Assembly: GCA_041662625.1 (NCBI GenBank)
Contig: JBAZSB010000001.1
Span: 374,467 to 438,466, forward strand
DNA from: Patescibacteria group bacterium
GTDB taxonomy: Bacteria; Patescibacteriota; Patescibacteriia; Buchananbacterales; UBA6539
Direction: 5' to 3'
DNA length: 64,000 nucleotides
Each line of letters begins with the position of its first letter. Position 1 is the stretch's first letter. The translations under genes and the position numbers were made by a program. Under the pieces are notes generated by a model. It had not been told where the DNA came from. It saw nothing but the letters and a program-made list of their open reading frames with translations, and searched no databases. Of this stretch, positions 43,197-64,000 are shown one piece after another.

Positions 43197-44597
43197 TTGT
43201 CACTTGTGGCCAAAAATTCAGTGCTTGGTGCTAAAAAGTACTTCTTGATTTTAGGGGATATATTTATCCTTTATTTTTCTCTTTGGTTAACTCTCATAAT
43301 TAGATATGGGGACAAATATGACAATGAACTTTGGCTCAGGCATCTTTGGCCGTTCACTCTTGTCTTTCTAGTCTGGTTAGTAATTTTTTATATTGATGAT
43401 TTATATGAACTGAACCTCCGCCAAGGGCGAGCTAATATTTTAAGCCGGATAATCAGAGATATCTTAATTGGTGGCATCCTAGCTATTATCTTCTTCTATT
43501 TAGGCGAAAATCGCCTCTTTGCCATCAAACCGCAAACAGTACTCTTAATTAATGGCGGTATTGCTGTTATTTCAATTTATCTTTGGCATATTGCTTTCGA
43601 CTCTTTCATTAAATTATCAAAGACTAATAGTTTAGTGATTATCGGCTTTAATCCACTAATTCAAGAAGTTATTGAGGAAATTAAAAAACGACCGCAACTT
43701 GGCTTCCAGCTCAAACATATAATTATCGAGGATAATAATATAAATATTCCTGACAACTTAAAAAGTGTCACTATCTATGACCACTTCGAAAATTTAAAAA
43801 ATATCTGCCTCAACAATAAAATTAATACCATCGTTTCTAACATTCATCCGAGAGACAACAATAGTTTGTCAAAAAGCTTATTTGATTGTTTGCCCCTACA
43901 AATAAACTTTTTCGATATTGCTAATTTTTACGAAAAAATCACTGGCAAAATTCCTGTAACAACGATCGAACAAATTTGGTTTCTGGAAAATTTAGAGGAA
44001 AGCAACAAAAAATTCTACGAAAGAACAAAAAGGGTTTTTGATCTTATTTTGTCGTTTATCCTTTTTACTTTATCACTCCCCTTCATTCCGCTGATTGCTT
44101 TGATTATAAAATTAAGTAGTAAGGGAAAAGTATTTTTTACCCAAATCAGAGTTGGAAAAAATGGCCAAACTTTCAAGGTGATTAAATTTCGAACAATGTT
44201 TGAAAATGCCGAAACTAACGGCCCCCAATGGGCCACAACAAATGATTCCCGCATAACTAAAGTTGGCAGATTACTCCGCAAAACCAGAATTGATGAAATC
44301 CCTCAGCTGCTAAACATAATTAAAAATGAAATGAGTATAATCGGTCCCCGCCCCGAAAGGCCGGAATTTATTGAACAATTGCAAAATCAAATCCCCTTTT
44401 ATAAAGAAAGGCTTTTAATCAAACCGGGTTTAACTGGTTGGGCTCAGGTAGCCGGACCGTCCTATGGCGGCTCCAAAGAGGAAAGCCTGGAAAAACTCCA
44501 GTATGATCTATTTTATATCAAAAATCGCTCCCTGACTTTAGATTTAAGTATTCTCCTTAAAACCATCAGGATTGTTTTGAGTCGACAAGGACAATAA
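43197..44597 (+). CDS. polyprenyl-phosphate glycosyl-1-phosphate transferase (WbaP/bacterial sugar transferase)
   Basis: C-terminal sugar-transferase domain (RVFDLILS...KFRTM...GPRPERPEF). The start codon is uncertain: TTG at 43197 and no ATG nearby. Confidence 0.8.
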   Translation: MSLVAKNSVLGAKKYFLILGDIFILYFSLWLTLIIRYGDKYDNELWLRHLWPFTLVFLVWLVIFYIDDLYELNLRQGRANILSRIIRDILIGGILAIIFFYLGENRLFAIKPQTVLLINGGIAVISIYLWHIAFDSFIKLSKTNSLVIIGFNPLIQEVIEEIKKRPQLGFQLKHIIIEDNNINIPDNLKSVTIYDHFENLKNICLNNKINTIVSNIHPRDNNSLSKSLFDCLPLQINFFDIANFYEKITGKIPVTTIEQIWFLENLEESNKKFYERTKRVFDLILSFILFTLSLPFIPLIALIIKLSSKGKVFFTQIRVGKNGQTFKVIKFRTMFENAETNGPQWATTNDSRITKVGRLLRKTRIDEIPQLLNIIKNEMSIIGPRPERPEFIEQLQNQIPFYKERLLIKPGLTGWAQVAGPSYGGSKEESLEKLQYDLFYIKNRSLTLDLSILLKTIRIVLSRQGQ

Positions 44598-44601
44598 ATC
44601 C

Positions 44602-46446
44602 ATGTGTGGCATTGCTGGCTATTTAAAATTTAATAATTCTACCGATTTTGACCAGGAACACCTGGCTAAAATGTTAAAAACTATTGAATACCGGGGACCC
44701 AATGACCAAGGTATTTTTATTGACAAAAAAATTGGCCTGGGCCACCGCCGGTTAAGTATTCTTGATTTGAGCTCAGCCGGGCATCAGCCGATGTTTGATT
44801 CGGAAAAATCATTAGCAATTATCTATAACGGCGAAGTATTTAATTATCTTGAAATCAGAGAAGAATTAAAAAACAAGGGCTATAAATTCCAAACAGAGAC
44901 CGATACAGAAGTAATCATCTATTCCTACAAGGAATGGGGTCAAGACTGCGTTAAAAGATTCAACGGCATGTGGTCTTTCGTTATTTGGGATAAACAAAAA
45001 GAAGAATTATTTGCTAGCCGGGATCGCTTTGGCATCAAGCCATTCTTTTACCAAAAAACAGACGACTACTTTATTTTTGGATCGGAGATTAAAACTATCC
45101 TTGCCGTCTCACCATTACCAAAAAAAATTAACTACAAGCAGCTGTATAACTTTATTGATAGAAATATGTCCTATGGCTGTTCCGAAACGATATTTGAAAA
45201 TATCAATGAACTCCCACCCGGCCACAGCCTGAAAATAACGGGAAATAAAATGACATTTGATCAATATTGGCAGCTTGATTTGGAAAAAATAAAAACCAAA
45301 TACGATTATACCAAGCCGGAAAAAACTTTTCGTGAATTGCTGATTGACGCTGTTAAATTAAGATTAAGAAGTGATGTACCGGTTGGTGTCTGCTTGTCTG
45401 GTGGAATTGACTCAACAGTAATAACTGGAATCATTACTAAAATTTTAGGCCAAAAAATTGATACATTTTCTTCGGTCTACGACCAACCAGATTATAACGA
45501 AAAAAAGTTTATTGAAATTGCCAATAATTATTATGGCACTACCGCTCATTATCTCAAACCTGATCCGAATAAATTATTTGAGATAACGGAAAAAATAGTC
45601 AAACATCATGACTTACCGGTCAGGATGCCCAGCACTTTTTCCCATTGGCATGTGATGGAATGTGCCGCCCAAAAAGTCATTGTCACTTTAGATGGCCAGG
45701 GAGCCGACGAAATTTTAGGCGGCTATCCTGCCTATTACCCTTTTTATCTGGCTGATTTACTAAGGGGGTTAAAATTAAAAAAATTTGTTCAAACCAGAAA
45801 AGAAATAAAACATTACCTCAACCAAAGCTACGATAAAGAGGTAATTAAAATTTTAACGCCAAAATTTATCCTTAAAATCAAACGGCTATTCAAACCGCAG
45901 CGCCGCTGGCAGGACCAAATTCTAAGCGGAGAAATGCTAAAATTTAAAAGCGGACCAAATAAAATACCTAAATTTTTTTCCGGCTACCTGAATCAAGCTC
46001 TTTTTGAAGCATTCAGCACCACCAATCTGCCGGTTTTGCTTAGTAACGAAGACCGGATTAGCATGGCTTTCTCTCTGGAAGCCAGAGTCCCCTTTCTTGA
46101 TTACCGCTTAGTAGAATTTTGCTTCGGTCTGCCAATTAAATACAAAATTGATGGCTATAGAAATAAAGTAATCTTAAGGGAAGCATTCAAAGATATTTTG
46201 CCGCCAGAAATTTACGATCGAAAGGATAAAAAGGGTTTTCCGACACCAAATGATCACTGGTTTAAAAATGAACTAAAAAATAAGCTGCAAGAGTTATTCT
46301 ATTCACCAAATTTCAACCAAAACGGCTTACTGGATACCAAAAAAGTCCAAAATATTTTCCAGCAACACTTAAGCGGGAAAAACCATGGCCGATTACTTTG
46401 GCGAATACTGACACTGGAAATTTGGCTAAAAAAGTACTTTACTTAA
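44602..46446 (+). CDS. asnB: asparagine synthase (glutamine-hydrolysing)
   Basis: MCGIAG Ntn glutaminase. PP-loop SGGIDSTV. Confidence 0.8.
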   Translation: MCGIAGYLKFNNSTDFDQEHLAKMLKTIEYRGPNDQGIFIDKKIGLGHRRLSILDLSSAGHQPMFDSEKSLAIIYNGEVFNYLEIREELKNKGYKFQTETDTEVIIYSYKEWGQDCVKRFNGMWSFVIWDKQKEELFASRDRFGIKPFFYQKTDDYFIFGSEIKTILAVSPLPKKINYKQLYNFIDRNMSYGCSETIFENINELPPGHSLKITGNKMTFDQYWQLDLEKIKTKYDYTKPEKTFRELLIDAVKLRLRSDVPVGVCLSGGIDSTVITGIITKILGQKIDTFSSVYDQPDYNEKKFIEIANNYYGTTAHYLKPDPNKLFEITEKIVKHHDLPVRMPSTFSHWHVMECAAQKVIVTLDGQGADEILGGYPAYYPFYLADLLRGLKLKKFVQTRKEIKHYLNQSYDKEVIKILTPKFILKIKRLFKPQRRWQDQILSGEMLKFKSGPNKIPKFFSGYLNQALFEAFSTTNLPVLLSNEDRISMAFSLEARVPFLDYRLVEFCFGLPIKYKIDGYRNKVILREAFKDILPPEIYDRKDKKGFPTPNDHWFKNELKNKLQELFYSPNFNQNGLLDTKKVQNIFQQHLSGKNHGRLLWRILTLEIWLKKYFT

Positions 46447-46453
46447 GCTTAAT

Positions 46454-47098
46454 ATGAAAAAATTAATAAATAAGCTATTTAATCGTAGTGGTATCTTCCA
46501 CCCCACAAAAAATCATTCTCATTATCTAGAAAAATTTTCTAAGATTAAAGATAAAAAGATAATTAATATTGGTTCAGGGGGTTATGATCCTATACCTGGT
46601 GCTATTAATATTGATCCCTATCGCCAGGGTCCTAATACTATTAAAGCTTTTGGTGAAAACCTACCTCTAGAAGACAATTCAATTGATTTAGCAATTTGCA
46701 TGGCTGTTTTAGAACATACAAAATCACCGGAATTAATAATTAAAGAAATATATCGAGTTTTAAAAGTAAATGGACAAATTTATATTGAAATCCCTTTTAT
46801 TCAACCATATCATGCTGCGCCAGAAGATTTTATAAGATTTACCCTGCCGGGAATAGAAAAACTGTGTCAACAATTCAAAAAAATTGATTCGGGCATTGTT
46901 AATGGACCTGGATCAGGTGTTGCCTGGATATTAGTTGAATATGGCCAGCTATTCTTCAAAAATAGACTACTTAAAAAAATATCAAAGAATATAATTAAAA
47001 TTATAGTTTCTCCATTAAAATATATAGATAATTGGCTCATAAAAAAAGAAGACAGTATAAATTTAGCTGGCGGTTTTTACTTCTATGGAAAAAAATAA
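46454..47098 (+). CDS. class I SAM-dependent methyltransferase
   Basis: Methyltransf_11-like motifs (INIGSGG). Confidence 0.6.
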   Translation: MKKLINKLFNRSGIFHPTKNHSHYLEKFSKIKDKKIINIGSGGYDPIPGAINIDPYRQGPNTIKAFGENLPLEDNSIDLAICMAVLEHTKSPELIIKEIYRVLKVNGQIYIEIPFIQPYHAAPEDFIRFTLPGIEKLCQQFKKIDSGIVNGPGSGVAWILVEYGQLFFKNRLLKKISKNIIKIIVSPLKYIDNWLIKKEDSINLAGGFYFYGKK

Positions 47099-47105
47099 TA
47101 ACTGA

Positions 47106-48240
47106 TGTGAAAATTTTTATTTTTACAAAAGATTTTCCTAAAAAAAATTTTATCGGCGGGGCGGAAATCCAGGCTTATCTTTTAGCAAAATATCTCACTT
47201 TAAAAAATCATCAAATTAAATATTTGGTCTTAAAGGGAAAAAAAGGATTAGCCCAAACAGAAATTGAAGGATTTAAATTATTTTCTCTTAGTAGTCAACA
47301 AGAAAGCGACTTAAAAGCAATCATTAATTTTTATCAGATCAACAAAAAAGAAAAGCCAGATTTATTTTTTATCCGCGATTTTCGCTATTTATTTATTTTT
47401 TATCTTACCTGCCGCTTCTTAAAAATTCCGGTAATTTACAATACCACCCATATTAATAATTGTTTGCCTTATCCTAAAAAAATAAAATTCAGTATAAATA
47501 TCCTGGCAACCTTAATTTCGGCCAAAGCAGCACTAATCCATTTCTTGAACTTTAAAACTTTAAAAAAAGTCCACGTTATAACCATCAATAGACTCCATGC
47601 TGAAATCCTTAAAACTAAATACAATATAACGGCTACCCCAATTTATAACAGCATGGAAGATAATTACCAAAAATTTAAAGTCGCTGAAAAAGAAGATATT
47701 ATTGTTTGGGTGGCAAATTTGAAAGGTAGAAAAAGACCAGAAATTTTCTTACAGCTAGCTCAAGAGCTAAAAGAAACTAATTTTAAATTTTTAATGATCG
47801 GTTACCTGCAGAATAATATTGATTTATACAAAAAGTTAATTGAAGAAACACAAAATTTTAATCCCAATTTCAAATACTTAGGCGGACAAGCAGTTGAAAA
47901 AGTTGATGAAATTTTAGCCAAAGCAAAAATTTTTGTTAATACCTGCCTGCCAGAAGGCTTTGGCAATAATTTCATCCAAGCCTGGCTAAATGAATGCCCA
48001 ACAATCACTTTAGATTTTGACCCCGATGATATTATCAAAAACAATAAAATCGGTTTTCATTCCGCCTCCTATGAACAATTGGCTAAAGATACTAAATTTT
48101 TAATTACTAATGAAAATACCAGAGCCGAGATGGGCAAACATGCCCGGGAGTTCGCCCTAAAAAATCATTTACCAAAAAATAATGTCTTGAAGTATGAAAA
48201 TTACTTCCTAAGCATAATTAATAAAAAACAACATGATTAA
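47106..48240 (+). CDS. glycosyltransferase family 4
   Basis: GT4 C-terminal motifs. The GTG at 47106 (VKIFIFTKDF) is the likely start, because the ORF-track start at 47032 overlaps the upstream gene. Confidence 0.65.
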
Positions 48241-49276
48241 AAAATTGAATAATTTTATTAACAAAATTGAAACAAGCCTGGGTCGGACTAAACTGATTTC
48301 CCTGCCTAGATATGCTCAGATTGAGCCCACCAATCGCTGCAATGAAAAATGCGTCTTTTGCCCCCGCAATGAAGCCAATTATGACGTCCCGCTTGGTGAC
48401 ATGAGTTTTGACCAATTTAAAAGTATACTTAAGCAAATTCCGACTTTGACTGATATTCAAATTAACGGTTTGGGTGAGCCGCTGCTTAATAAGGATATCT
48501 TGACGATGATCAAATATGCCGCCAACCGAGGCATCAGTGTCGCCATGAATTCCAATGTTACTGTTGTCAACGAAGAAATGGCCAAGAAATTAGTTAGCTC
48601 CGGCCTTGGACTGCTAAAAGTATCAGTGGACACTACTGATCCAAAAGTTTATCAATCTATCAGAAAAGGCAACTTCGAAAATGCTATCAATGGCATAAAA
48701 AATTTAGTCAAAGCCAAAAAAGAATTGGGTTTAAGCAAGCCAAGTATTTGGTTTAACTCAATAATTTTAAAACAAAATATTGACGAGTTATCAAAAATTA
48801 TAAAACTGGGAGAAGAATTGGGTATTGATCAGGTAAGGTTTAAACCAATTGATACTTTTGATCTATACCAGAAAAATGACTTGCTGGTAGATAATAATAA
48901 ACTGTTGGAAACACTAGAAGCAACCCAAAAGGAATGCAAAAACCTAAAAATAAAGCATAACTTGGATAAATTAATTGACGAGTTTAAAAATTATTACCGT
49001 CCGCCGCAAAAGCTCCCCTGCTTTTCTCCTTGGTATGAAGTGTATATTCAATATTATGGCGGCGTCAGACTTTGCTGCGAATTTTATAGCAAAAAATATG
49101 ATGTTGGCAACATCTTTGAACAAGGATTCAGAAATGTTTGGAATAGTAAAAAATACCAACATATTCGCGCCTCATTCAGTAAAGGCGATACTTATTTCCC
49201 CGTCTGCCAAACTTGCAACCGGTTCAAAAGAAATATTAGAATTTATAATAAACTAAAAAAATTAAAATTAAGATAA
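48233..49276 (+). CDS. radical SAM / SPASM-domain protein
   Basis: CNEKCVFC (Cx3Cx2C). C-terminal Cys cluster. Confidence 0.75.
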   Translation: MIKKLNNFINKIETSLGRTKLISLPRYAQIEPTNRCNEKCVFCPRNEANYDVPLGDMSFDQFKSILKQIPTLTDIQINGLGEPLLNKDILTMIKYAANRGISVAMNSNVTVVNEEMAKKLVSSGLGLLKVSVDTTDPKVYQSIRKGNFENAINGIKNLVKAKKELGLSKPSIWFNSIILKQNIDELSKIIKLGEELGIDQVRFKPIDTFDLYQKNDLLVDNNKLLETLEATQKECKNLKIKHNLDKLIDEFKNYYRPPQKLPCFSPWYEVYIQYYGGVRLCCEFYSKKYDVGNIFEQGFRNVWNSKKYQHIRASFSKGDTYFPVCQTCNRFKRNIRIYNKLKKLKLR

Positions 49277-49280: not shown

Positions 49281-50153
49281 ATGGAAAACATAAAATTTTC
49301 AGTAATTATCCCGGCCTATAACGAACAAGCTACTATTTTAACTACCATCAATGCACTAAAAGATTACCTTCGGCTCAATTTTGCCAATCACTATGAAATA
49401 ATAGTAGTCAACGATGGTTCAAATGATAAAACAGCAGAAATTCTTGGTCAGATAAATGAAAACGAGATTAAAGTAATCAATCATCCTTACAACAAAGGCT
49501 ACGGCGCCTCCGTCAAAACAGCAGTGGCGGCAAGCTTGATGGACTGGATTTTAGTCTTTGACGCCGATGGTCAGCACAAAATAGAAGATATTGGCCGCCT
49601 CATTCAAGCTAGCGATGGATTTGATATGGTGGTTGGCTCTAGACAGGGCTATAAAGGACCACTGGTCAGGCAACCAGGGAAAAAAGTCCTACACTGGGTA
49701 GCCGAATATTTAGTGGAACACAAAATCCCTGATTTAAATTCTGGCTTAAGATTAATAAAAAGAGAGTATTTTAATAAATACGCTCACTTGCTGCCAAATG
49801 CTTTCTCCTGGACAACGACAATCACCTTAGCATTCTTCAAAAACGGGCTAAATGTTAATTATCTGCCAATTGAAATTAAAAAAAGACAAGGCGGCAAAAG
49901 CACCGTAAAGATCAGTGATGCTTTTAAGACCTTAATGCTAATCTTGAGAATAATTATGCTTTTTTCGCCGCTAAGAATTTTTCTGCCGATAACCATTGTT
50001 TTAGGCACATTAACTTTAGCTTTTGGCATATTCGATTTAAGTCAGGGAAATATTACTGATGCTACGGTTTTATTACTTGTCAGCACTATTCTAATATTTT
50101 TCTTTGGCCTTTTGGCTGACCAAATTGCTTCAATCAGGCGAGAAATAAAATAA
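49281..50153 (+). CDS. GT2 polyprenol-phosphate sugar synthase-like glycosyltransferase with C-terminal TM helices
   Basis: VIIPAYNE...VVNDGSNDKT. Confidence 0.8.
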   Translation: MENIKFSVIIPAYNEQATILTTINALKDYLRLNFANHYEIIVVNDGSNDKTAEILGQINENEIKVINHPYNKGYGASVKTAVAASLMDWILVFDADGQHKIEDIGRLIQASDGFDMVVGSRQGYKGPLVRQPGKKVLHWVAEYLVEHKIPDLNSGLRLIKREYFNKYAHLLPNAFSWTTTITLAFFKNGLNVNYLPIEIKKRQGGKSTVKISDAFKTLMLILRIIMLFSPLRIFLPITIVLGTLTLAFGIFDLSQGNITDATVLLLVSTILIFFFGLLADQIASIRREIK

Positions 50154-57749: not shown

Positions 57750-59477
57750 TTATTTAATAAGATTTAAAAACCAACTCTGATTAGGTAATTTAACGTTAAA
57801 AGAATTAATCGGGATTTGATTATCGGCAATATTTTTAATGTTATAATTTTCAACAATTTTTTTAGATAACTCCGGATCATAGCCTAAAATATATTTTACC
57901 TTGAACTCATCAAAAACTTGACCGAGTTTATTTTCAGAGATTAACTTTTCTATTGTTTCCTTTTGGAAGACCACAAAAGATTTGTTACTCCGATAATTAA
58001 GGTAATAAACTTCATTGGCACTAGTAGGGGTAGCAATAACATCATTGCTGACAATATTATTTTCCTTAATTTTTTCTATATAGCTGTCTAGTAATGGTAT
58101 GGGGTTATTATTATATTTCTGGCTCCACATCACATGGTTAGAAAGGATTAGATTATAAATGACTAAAATCAAAATAAAAAAGGTAATGAGATTTTTATTT
58201 TTTTGGTAAGATAATTGATTAGACAAAGAATCGGTTAATAAAATAATGCCTAAACTCGAGCAGACAGCTAAACCAAAACCTAAATCCATCATATGATTAC
58301 GCCCAACTAATGCCACCCCGCCCCATAGAATGATACTCCCTAAAAACCAAGATGTAAATAAAATAAACCAAGGCTTTCTTTTAATTTTAAGGGCAATTAA
58401 ACCAATAATTAATAGCAACGTAATTAATGGGCCACCCGTTTCGGAAATCGACATAAATCTAAATAAATGCCGGACGGTCAAAATTGAACTAATTTTTAAA
58501 CGCCCAATAAAATCAAGGGGCATGGCCCCAACACTGGAGGCTTGTTTATTAATCGCCTGTTGCTTGGTAAAATCAGAATTTTCTCCCTGACTGAGTTGCT
58601 CCTGTAAGTAAGATTCCTGAGCAAAATGATAAGTATAGGGATCAGGAAAAAATTCAGCGTAATAACTATAATCTATGGCTTTTGAATTCTCAACTTCGGA
58701 TGGGGTTTTAAAAATGAAGGAATAAACATTGTTTCCTGAAATAAAATTTGGCAACCAAAAAATTATTAATATCAAGGTTAAAGGTATAAAAATATACAGC
58801 AGACGCTTCTTGTTTTGAGAAAACAAGAGAAAAATAAATAAAATCGGGAAAAAAATCAAAAATGCCTCCTTGCTTAAACCAGCTAAGGCCAAAAAAATAC
58901 CAGAAAAAATTAAATAAATTGTTGAAAGACTAAAAAAATTACTTTTTATTTCTTTCCCTAATCCCCTGGTTCCCAAAGTAAACAACAAAAAGAAAATGGC
59001 TAAAAATAAAACGGCAAATTGATAACTCAAAAGTGATTGGGTGATAAACCAGTTTGAAGGTAAAAAGATATAAATCAAAGAAAAAAATAAAAATACTTTA
59101 TAACCAAACAAATAATAAACTGCTAAACCAAAAATAATTAAAGCTAAAGCTAAAACTACGCAATTAAATAAAATAACTGACAAAACATTAAAACTGCCAA
59201 AAATCTTAATTATTTTTGCCATTAGGAAAACACTTAAATTATTCCCCTGTAAAGATTGATTACCTTGCTCTTTTAATAAATCAGTAGACAGAACAACGTT
59301 CAAATCATTTTCCGCACCATTGATTTCAGCGTTTGCTAAATTCCTAGCTCTGACTAAAGCATTTACGTCTAAAATTGAAACATTGTAACCTTTAAAAATT
59401 ATTGGTGAATACCAAACCAAAACTGCCAATAAAGCAATTACTCCTAACGATGCAATTAAAATTATCTTTTGTTTCAT
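57750..59477 (-). CDS. polytopic membrane protein
   Basis: 575 aa, about 12 TM, with a C-terminal soluble domain. Confidence 0.45.
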   Translation of the reverse strand: MKQKIILIASLGVIALLAVLVWYSPIIFKGYNVSILDVNALVRARNLANAEINGAENDLNVVLSTDLLKEQGNQSLQGNNLSVFLMAKIIKIFGSFNVLSVILFNCVVLALALIIFGLAVYYLFGYKVFLFFSLIYIFLPSNWFITQSLLSYQFAVLFLAIFFLLFTLGTRGLGKEIKSNFFSLSTIYLIFSGIFLALAGLSKEAFLIFFPILFIFLLFSQNKKRLLYIFIPLTLILIIFWLPNFISGNNVYSFIFKTPSEVENSKAIDYSYYAEFFPDPYTYHFAQESYLQEQLSQGENSDFTKQQAINKQASSVGAMPLDFIGRLKISSILTVRHLFRFMSISETGGPLITLLLIIGLIALKIKRKPWFILFTSWFLGSIILWGGVALVGRNHMMDLGFGLAVCSSLGIILLTDSLSNQLSYQKNKNLITFFILILVIYNLILSNHVMWSQKYNNNPIPLLDSYIEKIKENNIVSNDVIATPTSANEVYYLNYRSNKSFVVFQKETIEKLISENKLGQVFDEFKVKYILGYDPELSKKIVENYNIKNIADNQIPINSFNVKLPNQSWFLNLIK

Positions 59478-59524: not shown

Positions 59525-60727
59525 TTAATTATTGTCAAATAAAATTTCTGGCAAAACTTTTTCCCCTAAAACTTTTGCTAAATAAGATTGACCGCTGTCA
59601 CGGCGGTGCCAATTTTCCAAAAAACCCTGCGCTTTTGGTTGTTCAAGATAAACCAAAAATTCATCATCAATCTCAATCAAACGATTTGGATTTTTCACTA
59701 AACTTTTTAACCGAATAAATAAATTTCCTGGGGCAAAATGATTATTATCAACTTGCTTAACAAAAGATAAAACTTCAGTCATAAAGTCCTCGATTGTCAT
59801 ATGCTGGACTCGTTTAATAAAAGCAACGAATCCCTGATTTTGATAAAAAGAGTCTAAATTACCGGATTTTTCATACTCTTGAAAAAATTGCGATTGCTGC
59901 GGCGGTAACATTAAAATGTAAACCTTAGACTGACTATTATCAATTGTATAATCAATCACCTTAGCCATTCTATCAATTACCTCCGAAGTAGAAGTAGAGA
60001 TATCATCAAAGTAAACCTCGGGATAAGGTTTAAAAAGATCAGGAGCTATCCCACTTTCTGAAAAATTATCATTTTGATTTATTTTTTTCAAAAAATTATA
60101 GCTTGATCTTAAAAACTGATAAGTTTTAAAGGATCTAATACCGGTAGCTGAACCATTAATTGGGGTAAAATCTTTTTTTTCTTTAACAGTTCCATTTTCG
60201 TCAAAAACCAAAGCCGGGGCGTGATTAACGGTCTGATCGTTTCCTGCTACCAGTGACGGATCCTTTTGCGGATCAAAGACATAAATAAAATAATCAATAT
60301 TATATTCTTGGCTGAATTTTTTTATCAAAAAATAAGCCATCTCAATATTATATTTTGGGATACAAAAATTAAAGACTTCTATTTTTTTATTGGGATAATT
60401 TTTATTCCACTCTTTTTCTAAAATAGTGGTAGCAATATTTTCCAAGGCGGAATTAGTTCCTCGCAAATAATGAGAACCAACAAAGGCAAGGCGAGTAACA
60501 TCATTTGGTTTCTCTTGCAAATGATTAACGTCCCTAAAACCGTCTTTATTGATGGAAAATAAATTTCCTTCATACCAAAAATTATGGTTGGCTAGATGCG
60601 ACCAACCGAATTCTGGCTGATACTGTAATAAAACTTCCGTGTTGTAATGGCTCCAGTTTAAATAAAATTCAAAACCAATAACTAAGATAGCTGCTATAAT
60701 AACAAGGATGATAATTTTATTTATCAT
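59525..60727 (-). CDS. membrane-anchored hypothetical protein (possible SGNH/acyl-esterase-like)
   Basis: N-terminal TM. No firm family. Confidence 0.35.
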   Translation of the reverse strand: MINKIIILVIIAAILVIGFEFYLNWSHYNTEVLLQYQPEFGWSHLANHNFWYEGNLFSINKDGFRDVNHLQEKPNDVTRLAFVGSHYLRGTNSALENIATTILEKEWNKNYPNKKIEVFNFCIPKYNIEMAYFLIKKFSQEYNIDYFIYVFDPQKDPSLVAGNDQTVNHAPALVFDENGTVKEKKDFTPINGSATGIRSFKTYQFLRSSYNFLKKINQNDNFSESGIAPDLFKPYPEVYFDDISTSTSEVIDRMAKVIDYTIDNSQSKVYILMLPPQQSQFFQEYEKSGNLDSFYQNQGFVAFIKRVQHMTIEDFMTEVLSFVKQVDNNHFAPGNLFIRLKSLVKNPNRLIEIDDEFLVYLEQPKAQGFLENWHRRDSGQSYLAKVLGEKVLPEILFDNN

Positions 60728-61950
60728 AAATAAAACTTCAAGAGATTATTAATTTGATGTTCAACTGTAAAATGATTTTTTATTTTATCATAACCATTAT
60801 CACCAAAGTTTTTGGCTAAATTATCGTCATTTAAAATTAGCTTTATTTTTTCAGCCATTGTCTTAATATCTAAAGGATTGATAATAAAACCGGTTTTATT
60901 ATCTTCAACTAATTCCCGACTGCCGCCAAAGCAGGTAGCAATCACCGGCCTTTGACAAGCCATAGCTTCTAAATTTACTGTTGGGAAAGAATCAAAACAA
61001 ACTGAAGGGACAACAACGACACTGCTGCTCCCATAAGCAGCGGCTAATTCTTTCCCCTTAAGCCAACCAGTCTTCAGCAAAATAACGCCTTGGCTTTTGG
61101 CGAAATCCGAAATCTCATTTAAATATTGATCATTCCGGCCAACGACTAACAAAACTACATTGGGAACTGATTTCTTGACTTCGGCGGTGGCTAATATTAA
61201 TTCTCTGCCCCCCTTTAAGGCGCTAAGCCGACCGCCAAAAAAAACTACTCTTTTATCTAAAAGATTAAACTTTTTTTTAAATTGGCTTATTTCTAAATCA
61301 GTTATTTCCCACTCTCTTTGGTCTATACCATTATGAACCACGGCTACATTTTTAATACCATTTTGCTTTAAAGCATCGGCTAATGCATCACTAACGGCAA
61401 AAATCTTATCGACATACTTTAAGTAATGATTAATAATTGCGTTACGAAACGGATTATATCTCTTCTTATATCTTTTTAACTGCTGCCAGATACTAACCTG
61501 ATAATTAAAAGTCTGTGGTACAGCTAAATTGCCTTGATCAATAAATTCGACTAGCTTGCCGTAATGAAATAATTGGACATCATGAGCGGTCAAAAAGACT
61601 TTTGGACAATATTTTTTGGCAATCTTTAAAACACCGTAGGAAGAATAGTAGTGAAGGTTATGGGTATGGATTATATCAGGCCTTATTTCTTTCACTAGCT
61701 TCTTAATCTCCCGCACGGCTACTGGGTTATAAAGGCTGCGATAAGCTTTCCAGCGCGGGTGATAATCGGGGACATAAATGCGGTAGACTCCATTATTACC
61801 GTTTTCTGCCAAAGATTGATCCTGAACCGTGGAAATGACAAAAACTTCATAGCCTTTAGCCTTAAAACCATTTACCAGATTAAAAACAATCTGCTCGGCT
61901 CCCCCGGTGCTATAAGGCGGAAACCAGTCCGCAATAAATAATATCCTCAT
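60724..61950 (-). CDS. glycosyltransferase family 4
   Basis: MRILFIADWFPP...GGAEQ and C-terminal GT4 motifs. Confidence 0.8.
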   Translation of the reverse strand: MRILFIADWFPPYSTGGAEQIVFNLVNGFKAKGYEVFVISTVQDQSLAENGNNGVYRIYVPDYHPRWKAYRSLYNPVAVREIKKLVKEIRPDIIHTHNLHYYSSYGVLKIAKKYCPKVFLTAHDVQLFHYGKLVEFIDQGNLAVPQTFNYQVSIWQQLKRYKKRYNPFRNAIINHYLKYVDKIFAVSDALADALKQNGIKNVAVVHNGIDQREWEITDLEISQFKKKFNLLDKRVVFFGGRLSALKGGRELILATAEVKKSVPNVVLLVVGRNDQYLNEISDFAKSQGVILLKTGWLKGKELAAAYGSSSVVVVPSVCFDSFPTVNLEAMACQRPVIATCFGGSRELVEDNKTGFIINPLDIKTMAEKIKLILNDDNLAKNFGDNGYDKIKNHFTVEHQINNLLKFYL

Positions 61951-62699
61951 AAATTAGTTTGTTCTAAACTCTGGCCATTGGTTAGATACTGACACTCAGA
62001 CCGATTAGCCATATATTTAAAAACTGTCTCTAAATCATCCCACATGTCATACTTTTCGATTTCCCAAGAATGCCCCCAGAGATGGTAAACGCCGCCTTCT
62101 TTTAAAAAACAATCAAAAAGGGCTTGACTTAAATTATGCCAACTAAAAAATGATCTTTTCGGCAGCTTAAGTTTTAAAATCTGAAAAAAGCTATTCTGCA
62201 ATGGCTGAAACAAAAATCTAGAAAAATAATAATGATCTTTATCTCTTTTTCTAAAAGGAAACGGATAAACATGAATCGTAGTAGCAAATTCAAATTTGTC
62301 TTGGCTGATACCAAATTCAAATTCCCTGGTAGTCCGGGCAGCAATAAAACCGGCCTCCTTAACGGCCTGCTTTGTTCTGAAATCAAATTTCCCGCCCGGA
62401 TAGGCAAACATCTTTATCTCCCGGCCCAAAAATTGCTCCAAAAAATCCTTTGACCCCTTAATTTCTCGTTTAATTTCTTCATCAGATACTAAACTGGTTA
62501 AATTGGGATGGTTTAAAGTATGAGCACCAATCTCTTGAGTTTCGGCAATTAATTTAATTTCTTGACCAGTTAAAGATTTTAACTCCAAATTTTTAGGGAT
62601 ATAAAAAGTCCCTTTTAAATTATATTTGTTTAAAAGGTTAAGCAGCTTTAAATCCAGCTTATTACCATCATCCCAACTGGTTGTGACAATCTTTCTCAT
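61947..62699 (-). CDS. polysaccharide deacetylase (NodB homology)
   Basis: TSWDDG motif 1, H..H. Confidence 0.75.
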   Translation of the reverse strand: MRKIVTTSWDDGNKLDLKLLNLLNKYNLKGTFYIPKNLELKSLTGQEIKLIAETQEIGAHTLNHPNLTSLVSDEEIKREIKGSKDFLEQFLGREIKMFAYPGGKFDFRTKQAVKEAGFIAARTTREFEFGISQDKFEFATTIHVYPFPFRKRDKDHYYFSRFLFQPLQNSFFQILKLKLPKRSFFSWHNLSQALFDCFLKEGGVYHLWGHSWEIEKYDMWDDLETVFKYMANRSECQYLTNGQSLEQTNL

Positions 62700-64000
62700 T
62701 TGTTTAACAGTAACCTAAACCAACCAAAAAAATGACTAAATATAATTTTTAATCTCCGGGAAAGTTTTTTCCAGCCATCAATGGTAAATAATGATTGAAT
62801 AAAAAATTTGGCAAAATACCAATAGCCATTTTCAAATCTAAAAACCAATAACCGATAATAATTCTTTATCTCTTCACGGGTCATGGTATCAGTATGATGA
62901 ACAACAGTCAGCCTGGTATCATATTTAAAATAATCAAATTCATCTATCTGGCCCTTGCTATAAAGCTCATCCCAAAGCTCTGAACCGGGTAAGGGGGTAG
63001 TAATATGAATTCTTACTCGGTCCGGCTTTATCTCTTTGATCAGCTTTCCGGTTTTATTTATATCCTCTTTGGTTTCACCAGGAAATCCGACCATAACAAA
63101 CATCATTGAATGAATTCCTGCTTCTTTTGCTAATTTAAATGAATGATAAACATTTTCTAATTTTAAATCTTTCTTAATCCGATCCAGAACTTTTTGTGAT
63201 CCTGATTCAACCCCCCACCAAATCCAACGAAAACCGGCTTTGTGCATCATCTTTAAAGTTTCCAAGTCAATAAAACTATTGCAACGACCCTGACAAATAT
63301 AGCCTAAATCATCAACTCCCCTTTTGATAATTTCTTCACAAATTTCTCTTACCCACTGATTTTGCTGGGATGACATACCAATAAATTCATTATCATAAAG
63401 CTGCACCGATTTAACTTTCAGTTCCTTTTTATAAAATTCTATTTCGTCAACAATGCTTTTGGGACTGCGAAAACGAGGCTTTTTCCCAGCGTTACAACAA
63501 AAAATGCAGCGGTGGGGGCAACCACGCGAACCCATCATTACTGCATTAGGCATATCTATACCCTCCCAACCGCCATGAACTCCATGATAAGCGGAAAAAT
63601 CTGGCTCTACTATCTGATAATTAGGAAAAGGAATCGAATCAAGATCGTCAATTAAACTTTGGGGTTCAGTTTTGCAGAATTCACCATTTTGCCCTCTAAA
63701 AGCTATCCCCTTGACTGTTTTTAAGTCTTTTTTATTTTCAAGACATTCAATCAAATCAACAATATTACTTTCGCACTCCCCTAGCCCTAAAACATCTATT
63801 GCTGGACACTCATCTAAGGTCTTTTCCGGCTCTAGGGTGGGACCAAAACCACCAGCTAAAATTTTAGCTTCACCTAAAGCTTCCCGACAAACTTCGGCTG
63901 TTTTATACAAAATCGGCATCCCTAAGGTAGTTGCGGTTAAACCAATAATATCTGGCTTTTCTTGAGCCAGTCGTGCTTTCAGCTTATCCCAGGATAATTC
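62696..64000 (-). CDS. B12-binding radical SAM protein (5' end beyond the window)
   Basis: CPHRCIFC. The frame stays open upstream of the track start to the window end (…PDIIGLTATTLG = B12-binding domain). Confidence 0.75.
   Translation of the reverse strand, partial: ELSWDKLKARLAQEKPDIIGLTATTLGMPILYKTAEVCREALGEAKILAGGFGPTLEPEKTLDECPAIDVLGLGECESNIVDLIECLENKKDLKTVKGIAFRGQNGEFCKTEPQSLIDDLDSIPFPNYQIVEPDFSAYHGVHGGWEGIDMPNAVMMGSRGCPHRCIFCCNAGKKPRFRSPKSIVDEIEFYKKELKVKSVQLYDNEFIGMSSQQNQWVREICEEIIKRGVDDLGYICQGRCNSFIDLETLKMMHKAGFRWIWWGVESGSQKVLDRIKKDLKLENVYHSFKLAKEAGIHSMMFVMVGFPGETKEDINKTGKLIKEIKPDRVRIHITTPLPGSELWDELYSKGQIDEFDYFKYDTRLTVVHHTDTMTREEIKNYYRLLVFRFENGYWYFAKFFIQSLFTIDGWKKLSRRLKIIFSHFFGWFRLLLNK

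What the first reader, a model, noticed from the sequence alone, without database searches (positions are those of the whole stretch)
43197..64000. Glycan locus unusually rich in radical-SAM chemistry and amidotransferases
A single locus combines an initiating polyprenyl-P sugar transferase with several GT2/GT4 enzymes, two class-I methyltransferases and AsnB plus a second AsnB-like/PP-loop N-acetyl-sugar amidotransferase. It also has two SPASM-type radical-SAM enzymes (48233-49276, 52125-53189) and a B12-binding radical-SAM (62696 onwards). Three rSAM enzymes in one polysaccharide cluster imply uncommon sugar modifications (C-methylation, epimerisation or cross-links). The product may be a heavily tailored, amidated surface glycan or glycoconjugate.
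Basis: partly seen in the sequence, partly recalled or inferred. Interest (0 to 1): 0.55.

Follow-up and report, generated by a model that had tools for sequence, protein, structure and literature searches.

The report
Radical-SAM-tailored surface glycan locus (Patescibacteria)
This is a cell-surface sugar-polymer gene cluster from a tiny uncultured (Patescibacteria/CPR) bacterium in which three radical-SAM enzymes are each paired with their own glycosyltransferase, in modules that recur across these bacteria and have never been characterised, so the surface sugar chemistry they make is probably unusual but is still unknown.

Summary
Three corrections apply. Both "SPASM" enzymes keep only 4-5 invariant C-terminal cysteines, so they are BtrN-type twitch enzymes with one auxiliary cluster. 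The B12-rSAM is on the minus strand in a convergent operon and is cut by the window end. Three rSAMs per locus is ordinary for relatives, which carry up to five B12-rSAM paralogues per 17 kb.

The locus splits into three conserved modules:
- A: AsnB-GT4-rSAM1. The GT4 sits directly upstream of rSAM1 in 14 of 14 orthologous loci.
- B: an ArnC/GtrB-like GT2, a glutaminase/N-acetyl-sugar-amidotransferase fusion, rSAM2, a flippase-like protein and a methyltransferase.
- C: B12-rSAM, deacetylase, GT4 and a 575-aa protein with no Pfam hit whose predicted fold is GT-C.

No rSAM reaches the threshold of any curated cofactor, tRNA or RiPP family, and there is no room for a precursor peptide.

Best reading: radical tailoring of polyprenyl-carried sugars, similar in logic to HpnI/K/J and the Arn pathway. 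The actual reactions are inferred only. It is a new variant of a known kind, of moderate interest.

The parts
43197..44597 (+). Initiating polyprenyl-phosphate glycosyl-1-phosphate transferase (Bac_transf; 5 TM-like segments)
   Evidence: PF02397 E 3e-66. TIGR03025 388 bits, above cut-off 295.6. TM segments. Promoter-like TTGACT-17-TATAAT at 43145-43173.
44602..46446 (+). AsnB-type glutamine-dependent amidotransferase (module A)
   Evidence: PF00733 and GATase_7. TIGR01536 464.5 bits, above cut-off 267. Cys2 (MCGI) and SGGIDS at 266. Precedes GT4a-rSAM1 in 7 of 14 orthologous loci.
46454..47098 (+). Class I SAM methyltransferase MT1
   Evidence: PF08241 E 1.6e-12. MT1-like genes sit just upstream of B12-rSAMs in relatives. 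An MT1-like domain is fused to a B12-rSAM in P0287.
47107..48240 (+). GT4 glycosyltransferase GT4a, obligate partner of rSAM1 (module A)
   Evidence: PF00534 and PF13439. Directly upstream of the rSAM1 orthologue in 14 of 14 loci at 45-82% identity. Probable GTG start at 47107. Overlaps rSAM1 by 8 nt.
48233..49276 (+). rSAM1: radical SAM enzyme with a BtrN-type twitch domain (one auxiliary 4Fe-4S cluster)
   Evidence: PF04055 and PF13186. C36/C40/C43, plus C263, C281, C282, C325 and C328 invariant in 22 orthologues. Its C-terminal domain matches the BtrN twitch domain, whole-sequence E 3e-9, with the four shared Cys in register. AF2 pLDDT 91.9. Nearest folds are BlsE, SuiB, DesII, CteB, SkfB, viperin and BtrN.
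49281..50153 (+). GT2 polyprenyl-phosphate glycosyltransferase (ArnC/GtrB/DPMS/AglJ-like) with 3 C-terminal TM segments (module B)
   Evidence: PF00535. NCBIfam best hits are AglJ, PgfS, PpgS and ArnC. Best PDB sequence hits are ArnC E 2e-15, GtrB and DPMS. TM segments at 217-275.
50155..52128 (+). Fusion of an Ntn (class II) glutaminase with an N-acetyl-sugar amidotransferase (NASAT/WbuX-like PP-loop) domain
   Evidence: GATase_6/7 at residues 75-210. TIGR03573 144.7 bits at residues 301-642, below cut-off 203. PDB 8wex LpNASAT E 2.6e-14; GlmS N-terminal domain E 2e-8. MCGI, SGGRDS at 361 and the tetracysteine CTKC...GVCNLC at 303-326 match the family motifs given in PMC10607449. Orthologues at 50-55% identity in L008, L014, L016, L035 and L062; same-architecture GATase proteins of 643-663 aa in L028, L076 and L077.
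52125..53189 (+). rSAM2: radical SAM enzyme with an abridged SPASM/twitch-like domain
   Evidence: PF04055 and PF13186. C32/C36/C39 plus C278, C296, C330, C333 and C337 invariant in 23 orthologues. 23% identical to rSAM1. Family of more than 800 proteins. Always near a GT2, a methyltransferase and/or a flippase-like gene.
53236..54180 (+). LPG_synthase_TM / flippase-like membrane protein (HpnL-type family)
   Evidence: PF03706 E 3e-42. TIGR00374 89 bits, above cut-off 43. 7 TM-like segments.
54182..54853 (+). Class I SAM methyltransferase MT2 (module B)
   Evidence: PF08241 E 6e-18. An orthologous position after the flippase-like gene is seen in L001 and L027.
62696..64000 (-). B12-binding (class B) radical SAM enzyme, N-terminal 48 residues beyond the window end (module C)
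   Evidence: PF04055. Frame open to position 64000. Full-length P0241 is 482 aa with PF02310. C161/C165/C168. NCBIfam BchE 229 of 481 and HpnJ 165 of 578. Best PDB hit 9ccb, the MCR Gln C-methyltransferase, E 4e-17.
61947..62699 (-). CE4/NodB-type polysaccharide de-N-acetylase (module C)
   Evidence: PF01522 E 1e-20. D10-D11 and H60/H64 present. Sits immediately after the B12-rSAM orthologue in 10 of 22 loci.
60724..61950 (-). GT4 glycosyltransferase GT4b (BshA/MshA-like retaining HexNAc-transferase type) (module C)
   Evidence: PF00534 and PF13439. NCBIfam hits to stp2, BshA and MshA, all below cut-off. Within 4.5 kb downstream of the B12-rSAM orthologue in 16 of 22 loci.
59525..60727 (-). 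400-aa protein with one N-terminal TM anchor and no recognisable family
   Evidence: No Pfam, NCBIfam or PDB hit. Not conserved in relatives; L029 has a second B12-rSAM in this position.
57750..59477 (-). 575-aa 12-TM protein: unannotated GT-C-fold glycosyltransferase (module C)
   Evidence: No Pfam or NCBIfam hit. 12 TM-like segments. AF2 pLDDT 91.8, pTM 0.92. The top 33 Foldseek PDB hits are all GT-C enzymes: AglB, STT3, PglB, ArnT, ALG9/12, DPY19, AftA/B, Pmt. hhalign against a PMT_2 set gives 75.6% probability. GT4-GT-C fusion in P0378. Follows GT4b in 7 of 22 loci.
54898..57741 (-). 947-aa membrane-anchored or secreted CotH plus right-handed beta-helix protein, last gene of the minus-strand operon
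   Evidence: PF08757, PF13229 and PF05048. One N-terminal TM. Syntenic in L001, L007 and L029.
40598..43078 (-). Wzy_C (O-antigen ligase/polymerase-type) 13-TM protein with C-terminal TPR repeats, divergent from the initiating transferase
   Evidence: PF04932 and TPR. Syntenic in L001, L002 and L007.

Best explanation
The region is part of a polyprenyl-phosphate-dependent cell-surface glycan locus of a Patescibacteria (CPR) bacterium. It comprises two convergent operons that resolve into three conserved modules. Each module pairs one cytoplasmic radical-SAM enzyme with one glycosyltransferase.

Module A (43197-49276): an initiating phosphoglycosyl transferase starts a carrier-linked glycan. 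GT4a adds a sugar, which its obligate partner rSAM1 then modifies. rSAM1 is a BtrN-type twitch enzyme, a class that typically does two-electron oxidation, and possibly epimerisation or decarboxylation of a sugar carbon. AsnB amidates a carboxylate and MT1 methylates.

Module B (49281-54853): an ArnC/GtrB-like GT2 makes a polyprenyl-phosphate N-acetyl-hexosamine. The glutaminase-NASAT fusion converts its acetamido group to an acetamidino group; a sister locus carries a deacetylase in this slot instead. rSAM2 and MT2 tailor the sugar further. The LPG_synthase_TM protein flips it for use by a GT-C enzyme.

Module C (64000 to 57750, minus strand): GT4b adds a HexNAc and the CE4 enzyme de-N-acetylates it. 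The B12-rSAM then either C-methylates it (the commonest class B reaction) or rearranges it as HpnJ and Cds do. The newly recognised GT-C enzyme transfers the product outside the membrane.

Shown: gene content, catalytic motifs, fold assignments and conserved gene pairing. Inferred: substrates, order of steps and every rSAM reaction.
For: - Identity of the parts: Pfam and NCBIfam; PDB sequence hits; motifs.
- Source organism: the 100%-identical proteins P0001 and P0241 lie on a 922-kb Patescibacteria MAG contig.
- Twitch rather than SPASM: rSAM1 has only C263, C281, C282, C325 and C328 invariant, and its C-terminal domain aligns with the BtrN twitch domain with the Cys in register. rSAM2 has five invariant Cys.
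- Module A: GT4a is adjacent to rSAM1 in 14 of 14 loci from Buchananbacteria, Falkowbacteria, 'Saccharibacteria' and a Woesearchaeota bin, at 49-85% identity.
- Module B: the stand-alone cassette GT2-rSAM2-LPG_TM-MT occurs in L027. L028 has PMT_2(GT-C)-LPG_TM-GT2-MT-GATase/NASAT-rSAM2. L026, L076 and L077 carry the same parts. L001 has a Polysacc_deac_1+DUF3473 deacetylase exactly where the window has the NASAT fusion, and both enzyme types act on an N-acetyl group.
- Module C: in 22 loci with an orthologue of the B12-rSAM, the deacetylase is next in 10, GT4b is downstream in 16 and the GT-C in 7. Gene fusions link GT4 to the GT-C (P0378) and B12-rSAM to an MT1-like methyltransferase (P0287).
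- GT-C fold of the 575-aa protein.
- Coupling: 4-8 nt start/stop overlaps throughout.
- Precedents: HpnI/HpnK/HpnJ and Cds (PMC12583986; PMC13459092); the NASAT reaction (PMC10607449).
Against: - There are no biochemical or glycan-structure data for any member, and the literature searches found nothing on these modules.
- No rSAM reaches a curated family cut-off. The nearest solved folds of rSAM1 are generic and include peptide maturases (SuiB, CteB, SkfB) alongside the sugar enzymes BlsE, DesII and BtrN.
- The NASAT domain scores below the TIGR03573 cut-off (144.7 against 203.2).
- No Wzx-type flippase was seen among the ORFs scanned, and the acceptor (polysaccharide, lipid or protein) is unknown.
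- AsnB passes the housekeeping asparagine-synthase equivalog model, so a primary-metabolism role cannot be excluded for this copy.
- Whether the rSAMs act on carrier-linked or on nucleotide-activated sugars is undetermined.
Confidence: 0.6

Rival explanations
1. The rSAMs, flippase-like protein and methyltransferases remodel a lipid rather than its sugar. The target would be the polyprenyl carrier or scavenged membrane lipids, as with HpnH/HpnR/HpnP, Tes/GDGT-MAS or ladderane-type enzymes. The glycosyltransferases would only supply head groups.
For: - Weak hits of rSAM1 to GDGT-MAS (PDB 7tol, 36 bits) and to Tes (52 bits).
- rSAM2 hits HpnH (56 bits) and Tes (51 bits).
- The B12-rSAM hits HpnJ (165), HpnR (100) and a lipid-biosynthesis B12 rSAM (99 bits).
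- The LPG_synthase_TM family includes lipid flippases and HpnL.
Against: - All scores are far below cut-offs and no higher than hits to unrelated families.
- The enzymes interleaved with the rSAMs (NASAT or CE4 deacetylase) act on N-acetyl sugars, and they swap within one slot.
- Each rSAM tracks a glycosyltransferase.
- No lipid-synthesis genes are nearby.
Confidence: 0.15
2. The rSAMs act one step earlier, on soluble nucleotide-activated sugars as DesII does, supplying unusual donors to their partner glycosyltransferases. Their targets would not be carrier-bound sugars.
For: The structural neighbours of rSAM1 include DesII, which acts on a TDP-sugar, and BlsE, which acts on a nucleoside-sugar. 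All three rSAMs are soluble with no TM segments.
Against: - rSAM2 lies between a polyprenyl-phosphate GT2 and a flippase-like gene. A B12-rSAM replaces it in that slot in L007, L035, L062, L041 and L047, which suggests action after transfer to the carrier.
- The order deacetylase then rSAM mirrors HpnK then HpnJ, which act on the lipid-bound sugar.
- Neither argument is decisive.
Confidence: 0.15
3. The locus is a RiPP-like or protein-maturation system. The SPASM-type and B12 rSAMs, an AsnB-like (lasso-cyclase-like) enzyme, methyltransferases and the nearby S8 protease would modify a peptide or the adjacent secreted CotH/beta-helix protein, which is then glycosylated.
For: - Pfam SPASM hits.
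- AsnB hits the lasso cyclase model with 373 bits.
- The B12-rSAM hits RiPP enzymes ApyD (134 bits) and rSAM_ocin_1 (85 bits).
- SuiB, CteB and SkfB are among the top fold matches.
- The S8 protease and CotH protein are syntenic in L001 and L007.
Against: - There is no space for a precursor ORF: gaps inside the operons are 1-48 nt.
- Both enzymes lack the second auxiliary-cluster cysteines typical of peptide-modifying SPASM enzymes.
- AsnB has an intact glutaminase Cys2 and passes the asparagine synthase model, not the lasso model (525 needed).
- The invariant neighbours across loci are glycosyltransferases, not peptides or proteases.
Confidence: 0.06
4. The rSAMs are housekeeping cofactor or tRNA-modification enzymes (tungsten-cofactor maturase, NirJ/AhbD, MoaA, BchE-like) that lie in the glycan locus by chance.
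For: The top-ranked NCBIfam names are cofactor enzymes: W_rSAM_matur 148 bits, NirJ1 78 bits, BchE 229 bits. JGI annotations read 'Fe-coproporphyrin III synthase' and 'Mg-protoporphyrin cyclase'.
Against: - All scores are 2- to 8-fold below the curated cut-offs.
- No heme, molybdopterin or chlorophyll genes were seen nearby.
- Pairing with glycosyltransferases is conserved in dozens of diverged loci.
- Up to five paralogues occur per locus, which is incompatible with a single housekeeping function.
Confidence: 0.03

Closest known systems
HpnI / HpnK / HpnJ (+HpnL) hopanoid side-chain pathway, and calditol synthase Cds
   Same: The logic matches module C: a glycosyltransferase adds GlcNAc, a deacetylase removes the acetyl, and a B12-domain rSAM then acts on the lipid-bound aminosugar by ring contraction to a cyclitol. 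An LPG_synthase_TM-family protein (HpnL) is associated. HpnJ is the second-best NCBIfam hit of the B12-rSAM (165 bits). Sources: PMC12583986; PMC13459092.
   Different: The score is far below the HpnJ cut-off (578). The deacetylase here is CE4/NodB-type. From my own knowledge, not tested here, HpnK is a different type of deacetylase and HpnI is not a GT4. No hopanoid genes are present. The host is a CPR bacterium, and the module ends in a GT-C transferase.
Three-component polyprenyl-phosphate glycosylation systems (ArnC/ArnD/ArnEF/ArnT; GtrA/GtrB/GtrV; PpgS with its GT-C; CsbB/GtcA/YfhO)
   Same: Module B has a membrane-anchored GT2 whose best solved relatives are ArnC, GtrB and DPMS. An enzyme acts on the N-acyl group of the carrier-bound sugar (a deacetylase in L001, as ArnD does). 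A small flippase-type membrane protein is present. GT-C enzymes are nearby (PMT_2 in L028 and L003; DUF6311, AftA_N and PMT_2 in the window).
   Different: The known systems contain no radical-SAM enzyme, no amidotransferase and no methyltransferase acting on the carrier-bound sugar. The flippase candidate here is LPG_synthase_TM-type, not ArnE/F or GtrA.
N-acetyl sugar amidotransferases (WbuX, WbpG, PseA, LpNASAT 8WEX)
   Same: The PP-loop SGGxDS and the tetracysteine CxxC...[GN]xCxxC motif are both present. PDB 8wex E 2.6e-14. The expected reaction is acetamido to acetamidino.
   Different: It is fused to an N-terminal Ntn (GlmS/AsnB-type) glutaminase domain. From my own knowledge, classical WbuX instead works with separate HisH/HisF-like partners (WbuY/WbuZ). 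It scores below the TIGR03573 cut-off.
Sugar-modifying twitch/SPASM-clade rSAMs: BtrN, DesII, BlsE
   Same: rSAM1 shares the BtrN twitch cysteine pattern. BlsE and DesII are among its top fold matches. All are soluble enzymes acting on carbohydrate C-H bonds.
   Different: Identity is only 14-18% and TM-scores about 0.6-0.7. Peptide maturases score equally well. These known enzymes belong to antibiotic pathways, not surface-glycan loci. rSAM1 has an extra invariant Cys (C282) next to the presumed cluster ligand.
Class B (cobalamin) rSAM sugar C-methyltransferases GenK, GenD1, Fms7, MoeK5
   Same: The domain architecture matches (B12-binding plus rSAM), and the context of aminosugar tailoring after deacetylation fits. 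Methylation is the commonest class B chemistry (PMC12931638).
   Different: No direct comparison was possible because no model or sequence was available here. The best named relatives are BchE, HpnJ and the MCR Gln methyltransferase. Methyl transfer is not shown.
XrtA/PEP-CTERM exopolysaccharide loci
   Same: The backbone genes resemble EpsB_2 (367 bits), the AsnB-type amidotransferase TIGR03108 (431 bits), the stp2/stp3 GT4s and, in L001, the XrtA-system deacetylase TIGR03006 (146 bits). A Wzy_C protein with TPR repeats is also present.
   Different: All scores are below cut-offs. No exosortase or PEP-CTERM protein was found among the window ORFs scanned. The classical system has no rSAM enzymes.

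Membership tests
Radical SAM superfamily | CX3CX2C cluster motif within a PF04055 core | tested here: met
   rSAM1 C36/C40/C43, rSAM2 C32/C36/C39, B12-rSAM C161/C165/C168. PF04055 E 4e-22, 5e-20 and 8e-24.
SPASM subfamily (two auxiliary clusters) | Seven-cysteine motif CX9-15GX4C...CX2CX5CX3C...C | tested here: not met
   rSAM1 has only C263, C281/C282 and C325-X2-C328 invariant. rSAM2 has only C278, C296 and C330-X2-C333-X3-C337. The Pfam SPASM model still matches because it also covers twitch domains.
Twitch-domain rSAM (BtrN type, one auxiliary cluster) | Four Cys with BtrN-like spacing that align to the BtrN auxiliary-cluster ligands | tested here: met
   In rSAM1 the four Cys align with Cys in the BtrN twitch domain (phmmer domain 21.5 bits, whole-sequence E 3e-9). 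That these are the BtrN auxiliary-cluster ligands is from my own knowledge. rSAM2 aligns with rSAM1 over the same Cys. NF033640 scores are below cut-off (80 and 58 of 170).
Class B (cobalamin-binding) rSAM | N-terminal B12-binding Rossmann domain (PF02310) followed by the rSAM core | tested here: met
   Full-length P0241, 100% identical over the window part, carries PF02310 and PF04055. Inside the window the domain is truncated. Cobalamin binding itself was not tested.
HpnJ (TIGR03471) | Score at or above the curated cut-off of 577.6 bits, plus a hopanoid gene context | tested here: not met
   164.7 bits. No hopanoid genes in the window.
BchE (TIGR02026) | Score at or above 481 bits, plus a bacteriochlorophyll context | tested here: not met
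   229.3 bits. No chlorophyll genes.
GenK/Fom3-type C-methyltransferases | Phylogenetic placement with characterised sugar or phosphonate C-methylases | not testable with these tools
   No model or reference sequence was available. Only indirect evidence exists: KedN5 78 bits, PhpK 113 bits, MCR Gln-MT 100 bits, all below cut-off.
Cofactor maturases (W-cofactor rSAM maturase, NirJ/AhbC/AhbD, MoaA, PqqE) | Score at or above each curated cut-off | tested here: not met
   rSAM1: 148 of 380, 98 of 500, 75 of 325. rSAM2: 78 of 650, 70 of 284.
Asparagine synthase B family (TIGR01536) | Cut-off 267 bits, N-terminal Cys nucleophile, PP-loop | tested here: met
   464.5 bits. MCGI and SGGIDS.
N-acetyl sugar amidotransferase (NASAT/WbuX, TIGR03573) | PP-loop SGGXDS and tetracysteine CXXCXn[GN]XCXXC (PMC10607449), plus the HMM cut-off of 203.2 | tested here: inconclusive
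   Both motifs are present (SGGRDS at 361; C303/C306/C323/C326). PDB 8wex E 2.6e-14. The HMM score is 144.7, below the cut-off.
Polyprenyl-phosphate glycosyltransferases (ArnC/GtrB/DPMS type GT2) | GT-A GT2 domain followed by C-terminal TM helices, with closest relatives in this class | tested here: met
   PF00535. 3 TM-like segments at 217-275. ArnC, GtrB and DPMS are the best PDB hits. Donor and acceptor were not tested.
GT-C glycosyltransferase superfamily (575-aa protein) | Multi-TM GT-C fold | tested here: met
   AF2 pLDDT 91.8. The top 33 Foldseek PDB hits are exclusively GT-C enzymes, best E 2.5e-5 and TMq 0.50-0.54 for the oligosaccharyltransferases. The OST signature WWDYG is not among the invariant columns D279, Y281 and H395. 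Catalysis was not tested.
XrtA/PEP-CTERM EPS system | Exosortase, PEP-CTERM proteins and family-specific cut-offs | tested here: not met
   EpsB_2 367 of 393, TIGR03108 431 of 817, stp2 107 of 409. No exosortase among the scanned ORFs.

The most novel reading that the evidence does not exclude
Patescibacteria and DPANN archaea share an uncharacterised, lineage-wide toolkit of glycosyltransferase-coupled radical-SAM modules: GT4 with a twitch rSAM; GT2, NASAT or deacetylase, rSAM and flippase; and B12-rSAM, deacetylase, GT4 and a new GT-C family. These modules would perform radical chemistry directly on carrier-bound surface sugars. The products would be sugar types not yet described in any surface glycan, such as multiply C-methylated, carbocyclic (cyclitol-like) or C-C-linked amino or amidino sugars. 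This would make the episymbiont's cell surface dependent on scavenged cobalamin.
Probability: 0.3. Interest if true: 0.75.

Novelty: new variant of a known kind. Interest (0 to 1): 0.55.

Why it matters
CPR/Patescibacteria and DPANN organisms live attached to host cells, so their surface glycans are likely to mediate attachment and recognition. Almost nothing is known about their chemistry.

This locus shows that radical-SAM enzymes are fixed, conserved partners of particular glycosyltransferases in these lineages. They include large expansions of cobalamin-dependent ones, in organisms generally thought (my own knowledge, not tested here) to be unable to make cobalamin. That points to new carbohydrate radical chemistry.

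It also defines concrete two- to five-gene modules that can be expressed and assayed. It adds an unannotated GT-C family and a new glutaminase-NASAT fusion to the catalogue of glycan enzymes. If the B12-rSAM modules prove to be HpnJ/Cds-like, cyclitol formation on lipid-bound sugars would extend from membrane lipids to surface glycans.

Tried and rejected
- An exact-sequence look-up of rSAM1 in the contig index found nothing, although a 100%-identical protein exists (P0001).
- tRNA and Rfam scans of the window found nothing.
- Five literature searches for these modules in CPR or in glycan loci returned nothing relevant.
- The 400-aa protein at 59525-60727 and GT4a gave no PDB sequence hits. 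The 400-aa protein has no family hit and is not conserved in relatives.
- The RiPP reading was rejected: no room for a precursor, twitch rather than SPASM, and an intact AsnB glutaminase.
- The cofactor/tRNA reading was rejected: all scores are far below cut-offs and pairing with glycosyltransferases is conserved.
- XrtA/PEP-CTERM membership was rejected: scores are sub-threshold and there is no exosortase.
- The terminator scan of the convergent junction at 54853-54898 showed nothing above the shuffled background.

Full report

The plus-strand operon runs from 43197 to 54853 and is preceded by a strong promoter-like site at 43145-43173. In order it encodes:
- a Bac_transf initiating transferase (TIGR03025, 388 bits, above cut-off);
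- AsnB (TIGR01536, 464 bits, above cut-off);
- a class I methyltransferase (MT1);
- a GT4 (GT4a), whose real start is probably the GTG at 47107;
- an rSAM with a Pfam SPASM hit (rSAM1);
- a GT2;
- a 657-aa glutaminase/PP-loop fusion;
- a second rSAM with a Pfam SPASM hit (rSAM2);
- an LPG_synthase_TM protein;
- a second class I methyltransferase (MT2).

A convergent minus-strand operon enters from beyond the window end. It encodes a B12-rSAM (62696-64000, frame open to the edge), a CE4 deacetylase, a GT4 (GT4b), a 400-aa unknown, a 575-aa 12-TM unknown and a 947-aa CotH/beta-helix protein. Genes overlap by 4-8 nt or are separated by less than 50 nt.

The three rSAM genes are the only CxxxCxxC/rSAM ORFs in the whole 64 kb. 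Proteins 100% identical to rSAM1 and to the B12-rSAM lie on a 922-kb contig of a Patescibacteria MAG. The full-length B12-rSAM (P0241, 482 aa) carries PF02310, which confirms the B12-binding domain that the window truncates.

**What the rSAMs are.** rSAM1 has the canonical C36/C40/C43 motif. In the C-terminal domain, only C263, C281, C282, C325 and C328 are invariant across 22 orthologues. phmmer aligns this domain with the twitch domain of BtrN (PDB 4m7t, E 3e-9), with four Cys in register. From my own knowledge these are the four auxiliary-cluster ligands of BtrN.

rSAM2 has C32/C36/C39 plus C278, C296, C330, C333 and C337 invariant in 23 orthologues. It is only 23% identical to rSAM1.

Neither enzyme has the seven-cysteine SPASM motif, so both are better described as twitch-type enzymes with one auxiliary cluster. 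A confident AlphaFold model of rSAM1 (pLDDT 91.9) finds BlsE, SuiB, DesII, CteB, SkfB, viperin and BtrN as nearest solved folds. Three of these are carbohydrate enzymes, but the list does not discriminate.

All NCBIfam hits of the three enzymes to cofactor, tRNA, lipid or RiPP families are far below the curated cut-offs:
- rSAM1: 148 of 380;
- rSAM2: 78 of 650;
- B12-rSAM: BchE 229 of 481, HpnJ 165 of 578, MCR glutamine methyltransferase 100 of 360.

The best solved relative of the B12-rSAM is 9CCB, the MCR glutamine C-methyltransferase.

**Conserved modules.** Gene neighbourhoods were read from orthologue look-ups, a genome scan and a metagenome scan. They were compared with the window's proteins by tblastn. 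Three modules emerge.

*Module A.* GT4a lies immediately upstream of rSAM1 in all 14 orthologous loci. rSAM1 identity there is 49-85%, and the bins are labelled Buchananbacteria, Falkowbacteria, Saccharibacteria and Woesearchaeota. An AsnB paralogue precedes the pair in 7 of the 14.

*Module B.* GT2, rSAM2, the LPG_synthase_TM protein and a methyltransferase recur together.
- L027, a 1.58-Mb contig with central-metabolism genes, has the bare four-gene cassette.
- L028 (Magasanikbacteria) has PMT_2(GT-C)-LPG_TM-GT2-MT-glutaminase/NASAT-rSAM2.
- L026, L076 and L077 carry the same parts.
- In the 85%-identical relative L001, a Polysacc_deac_1+DUF3473 deacetylase occupies exactly the slot of the window's amidotransferase fusion. 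Both enzyme types attack an N-acetyl group.
- In L007, L035, L062, L041 and L047, a B12-rSAM sits in the rSAM2 slot next to the flippase-like gene.

*Module C.* 22 metagenomic loci have an orthologue of the window's B12-rSAM (at least 45% identity) and at least 3 kb of downstream sequence. The deacetylase is the next gene in 10, GT4b follows within 4.5 kb in 16 (it lies just upstream in several others), and the 575-aa protein follows in 7.

These loci hold one to five B12-rSAM paralogues per 17 kb or less. The window's three rSAMs are therefore typical rather than exceptional among relatives.

An archaeal locus (L005, which encodes TFIIB) combines two SPASM-type and two B12 rSAMs with AsnB, GT4, a methyltransferase and UDP-glucose dehydrogenases.

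**Other parts.**
- The GT2 has three C-terminal TM segments. Its best solved relatives are ArnC, GtrB and DPMS, and its best NCBIfam names are AglJ, PgfS, PpgS and ArnC. It is a polyprenyl-phosphate glycosyltransferase type.
- The 657-aa fusion starts MCGI, the Ntn nucleophile. It has the PP-loop SGGRDS and the tetracysteine CTKC...GVCNLC. These are the two motifs that define N-acetyl sugar amidotransferases (PMC10607449). It matches the solved Legionella NASAT (8wex, E 2.6e-14) and the GlmS glutaminase domain. Its TIGR03573 score (144.7) is below the cut-off (203.2).
- The 575-aa protein has no Pfam or NCBIfam hit and belongs to a small family of 196 representative clusters out of 1.84 billion. 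A confident model (pLDDT 91.8, pTM 0.92) matches only GT-C glycosyltransferases among its top 33 PDB hits: AglB, STT3, PglB, ArnT, ALG9/12, DPY19, AftA/B and Pmt. Profile comparison with PMT_2 proteins gives 75.6% probability.
- Two gene fusions support functional coupling. P0378 joins a GT4 to this GT-C. P0287 joins a B12-rSAM to an MT1-like methyltransferase.

**Mechanism (inferred).**
1. Sugars are assembled on a polyprenyl carrier at the cytoplasmic face.
2. In module B, a polyprenyl-phosphate HexNAc is made. Its acetamido group is converted to an amidine, or removed in sister loci. It is further tailored by rSAM2 and MT2, flipped by the LPG_synthase_TM protein, and used by a GT-C enzyme.
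3. In module C, GT4b adds a HexNAc and the CE4 enzyme deacetylates it. The B12-rSAM then C-methylates or rearranges the aminosugar, and the new GT-C enzyme transfers it outside.
4. In module A, the sugar installed by GT4a is oxidised, epimerised or decarboxylated by the BtrN-like rSAM1, and a carboxylate is amidated by AsnB.
5. The Wzy_C-TPR protein (40598-43078) would polymerise or ligate the product.

The closest precedent for glycosyltransferase, then deacetylase, then B12-rSAM is HpnI/HpnK/HpnJ, with calditol synthase Cds as a second case of rSAM ring contraction of a lipid-bound hexose (PMC12583986; PMC13459092). The closest precedent for module B is the Arn/Gtr type of three-component glycosylation. 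None of the rSAM reactions is demonstrated.

**Rivals.** Four alternative readings were weighed:
- lipid-tail modification: weak sub-threshold hits to Tes, HpnH and HpnR, set against the N-acetyl-sugar enzymes interleaved with the rSAMs;
- action on nucleotide sugars rather than on carrier-bound sugars, which remains open;
- RiPP or protein maturation: no precursor space, twitch domains, an intact AsnB glutaminase, and invariant glycosyltransferase partners;
- housekeeping cofactor enzymes: refuted by the scores and the synteny.

**Novelty and verdict.** Literature searches found no description of these modules. The finding is real and the glycan-tailoring interpretation is the best supported. 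The chemistry remains unknown, and the richness is a lineage-wide trait rather than a peculiarity of this locus. I rate it a new variant of a known kind (a surface-glycan locus with conserved, uncharacterised rSAM tailoring modules), interest 0.55.

Noticed in passing
window 57750-59477 (-): A 575-aa 12-TM protein with no Pfam or NCBIfam hit is predicted with high confidence to have a GT-C glycosyltransferase fold. The best matches are the AglB/STT3/PglB oligosaccharyltransferases. The family is small (196 representative clusters), with an invariant FPDPYTYHF-type motif (D279, Y281) and H395.
   Followed up: yes
P0378 and P0392 (homologues of window 57750-59477): Proteins of about 980 aa in which a GT4 domain (27% identical to GT4b) is fused to the N-terminus of the GT-C family. 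This is a Rosetta-stone link between the cytoplasmic GT4 and the membrane GT-C.
   Followed up: partly
P0287 (homologue of window 62696-64000): A 682-aa B12-rSAM with a C-terminal class I methyltransferase domain that is 43% identical to the core of MT1 (window 46454-47098). MT1-like genes also sit directly upstream of B12-rSAMs in L029, L033, L036, L037, L050 and L061.
   Followed up: partly
L027 7112-10643: A bare four-gene cassette, GT2-rSAM2-LPG_synthase_TM-methyltransferase, on a 1.58-Mb contig next to citrate synthase and NAD-synthesis genes and beside a transposase. Module B therefore also exists as a stand-alone unit in what looks like a non-CPR genome.
   Followed up: partly
L007, L035, L062, L041, L047 (next to the LPG_synthase_TM gene): The slot occupied by the twitch rSAM2 in the window is occupied by a B12-rSAM paralogue in these relatives. 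Different rSAM classes appear to be interchangeable at the same pathway position.
   Followed up: partly
L005 (GCA_053533875.1, archaeal contig with a TFIIB gene): An archaeal locus combines two SPASM-type and two B12 rSAMs with AsnB, GT4, a methyltransferase, a nitroreductase and two UDP-glucose dehydrogenases. The rSAM-rich glycan theme crosses the domain boundary.
   Followed up: no
window 54898-57741 (-): A 947-aa protein with an N-terminal TM anchor, a CotH kinase-like domain and a right-handed beta-helix/NosD region. It is syntenic with the locus in L001, L007 and L029. Its role is unknown; it could be an acceptor glycoprotein, a glycan-modifying enzyme or a surface kinase.
   Followed up: no
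window 37924-43078 (-): A GtrA-family protein, a secreted S8 subtilase with FG-GAP repeats and a 13-TM Wzy_C protein with C-terminal TPR repeats are conserved in the same order next to the initiating transferase in L001, L002 and L007. The Wzy_C family includes O-oligosaccharyltransferases (own knowledge), so the TPR fusion might indicate a protein acceptor.
   Followed up: no
window 6606-20130 (-): Upstream lie dTDP-rhamnose-type genes: a nucleotidyltransferase (6606-7325), an RmlD-like gene (8210-9049), a 4,6-dehydratase (10144-11160) and a 3,5-epimerase-like gene (17650-18126). Three further GT-C-type membrane proteins are also present: DUF6311 (11757-13451), AftA_N (14893-16608) and PMT_2 (18889-20130). 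More than two thirds of the 64-kb window appears devoted to envelope glycans.
   Followed up: partly
window 59525-60727 (-): A 400-aa protein with a single N-terminal TM has no detectable family, structure or conserved orthologue. The closest relative (L029, 7642-9096) carries a second B12-rSAM at this position instead.
   Followed up: partly
window 48233-49276, residues C281-C282: rSAM1 orthologues keep an invariant Cys-Cys pair. C281 aligns with a Cys of the BtrN twitch domain and C282 aligns with a Phe in BtrN. The extra Cys could be a hydrogen-atom donor, as in rSAM epimerases. This is speculation.
   Followed up: no
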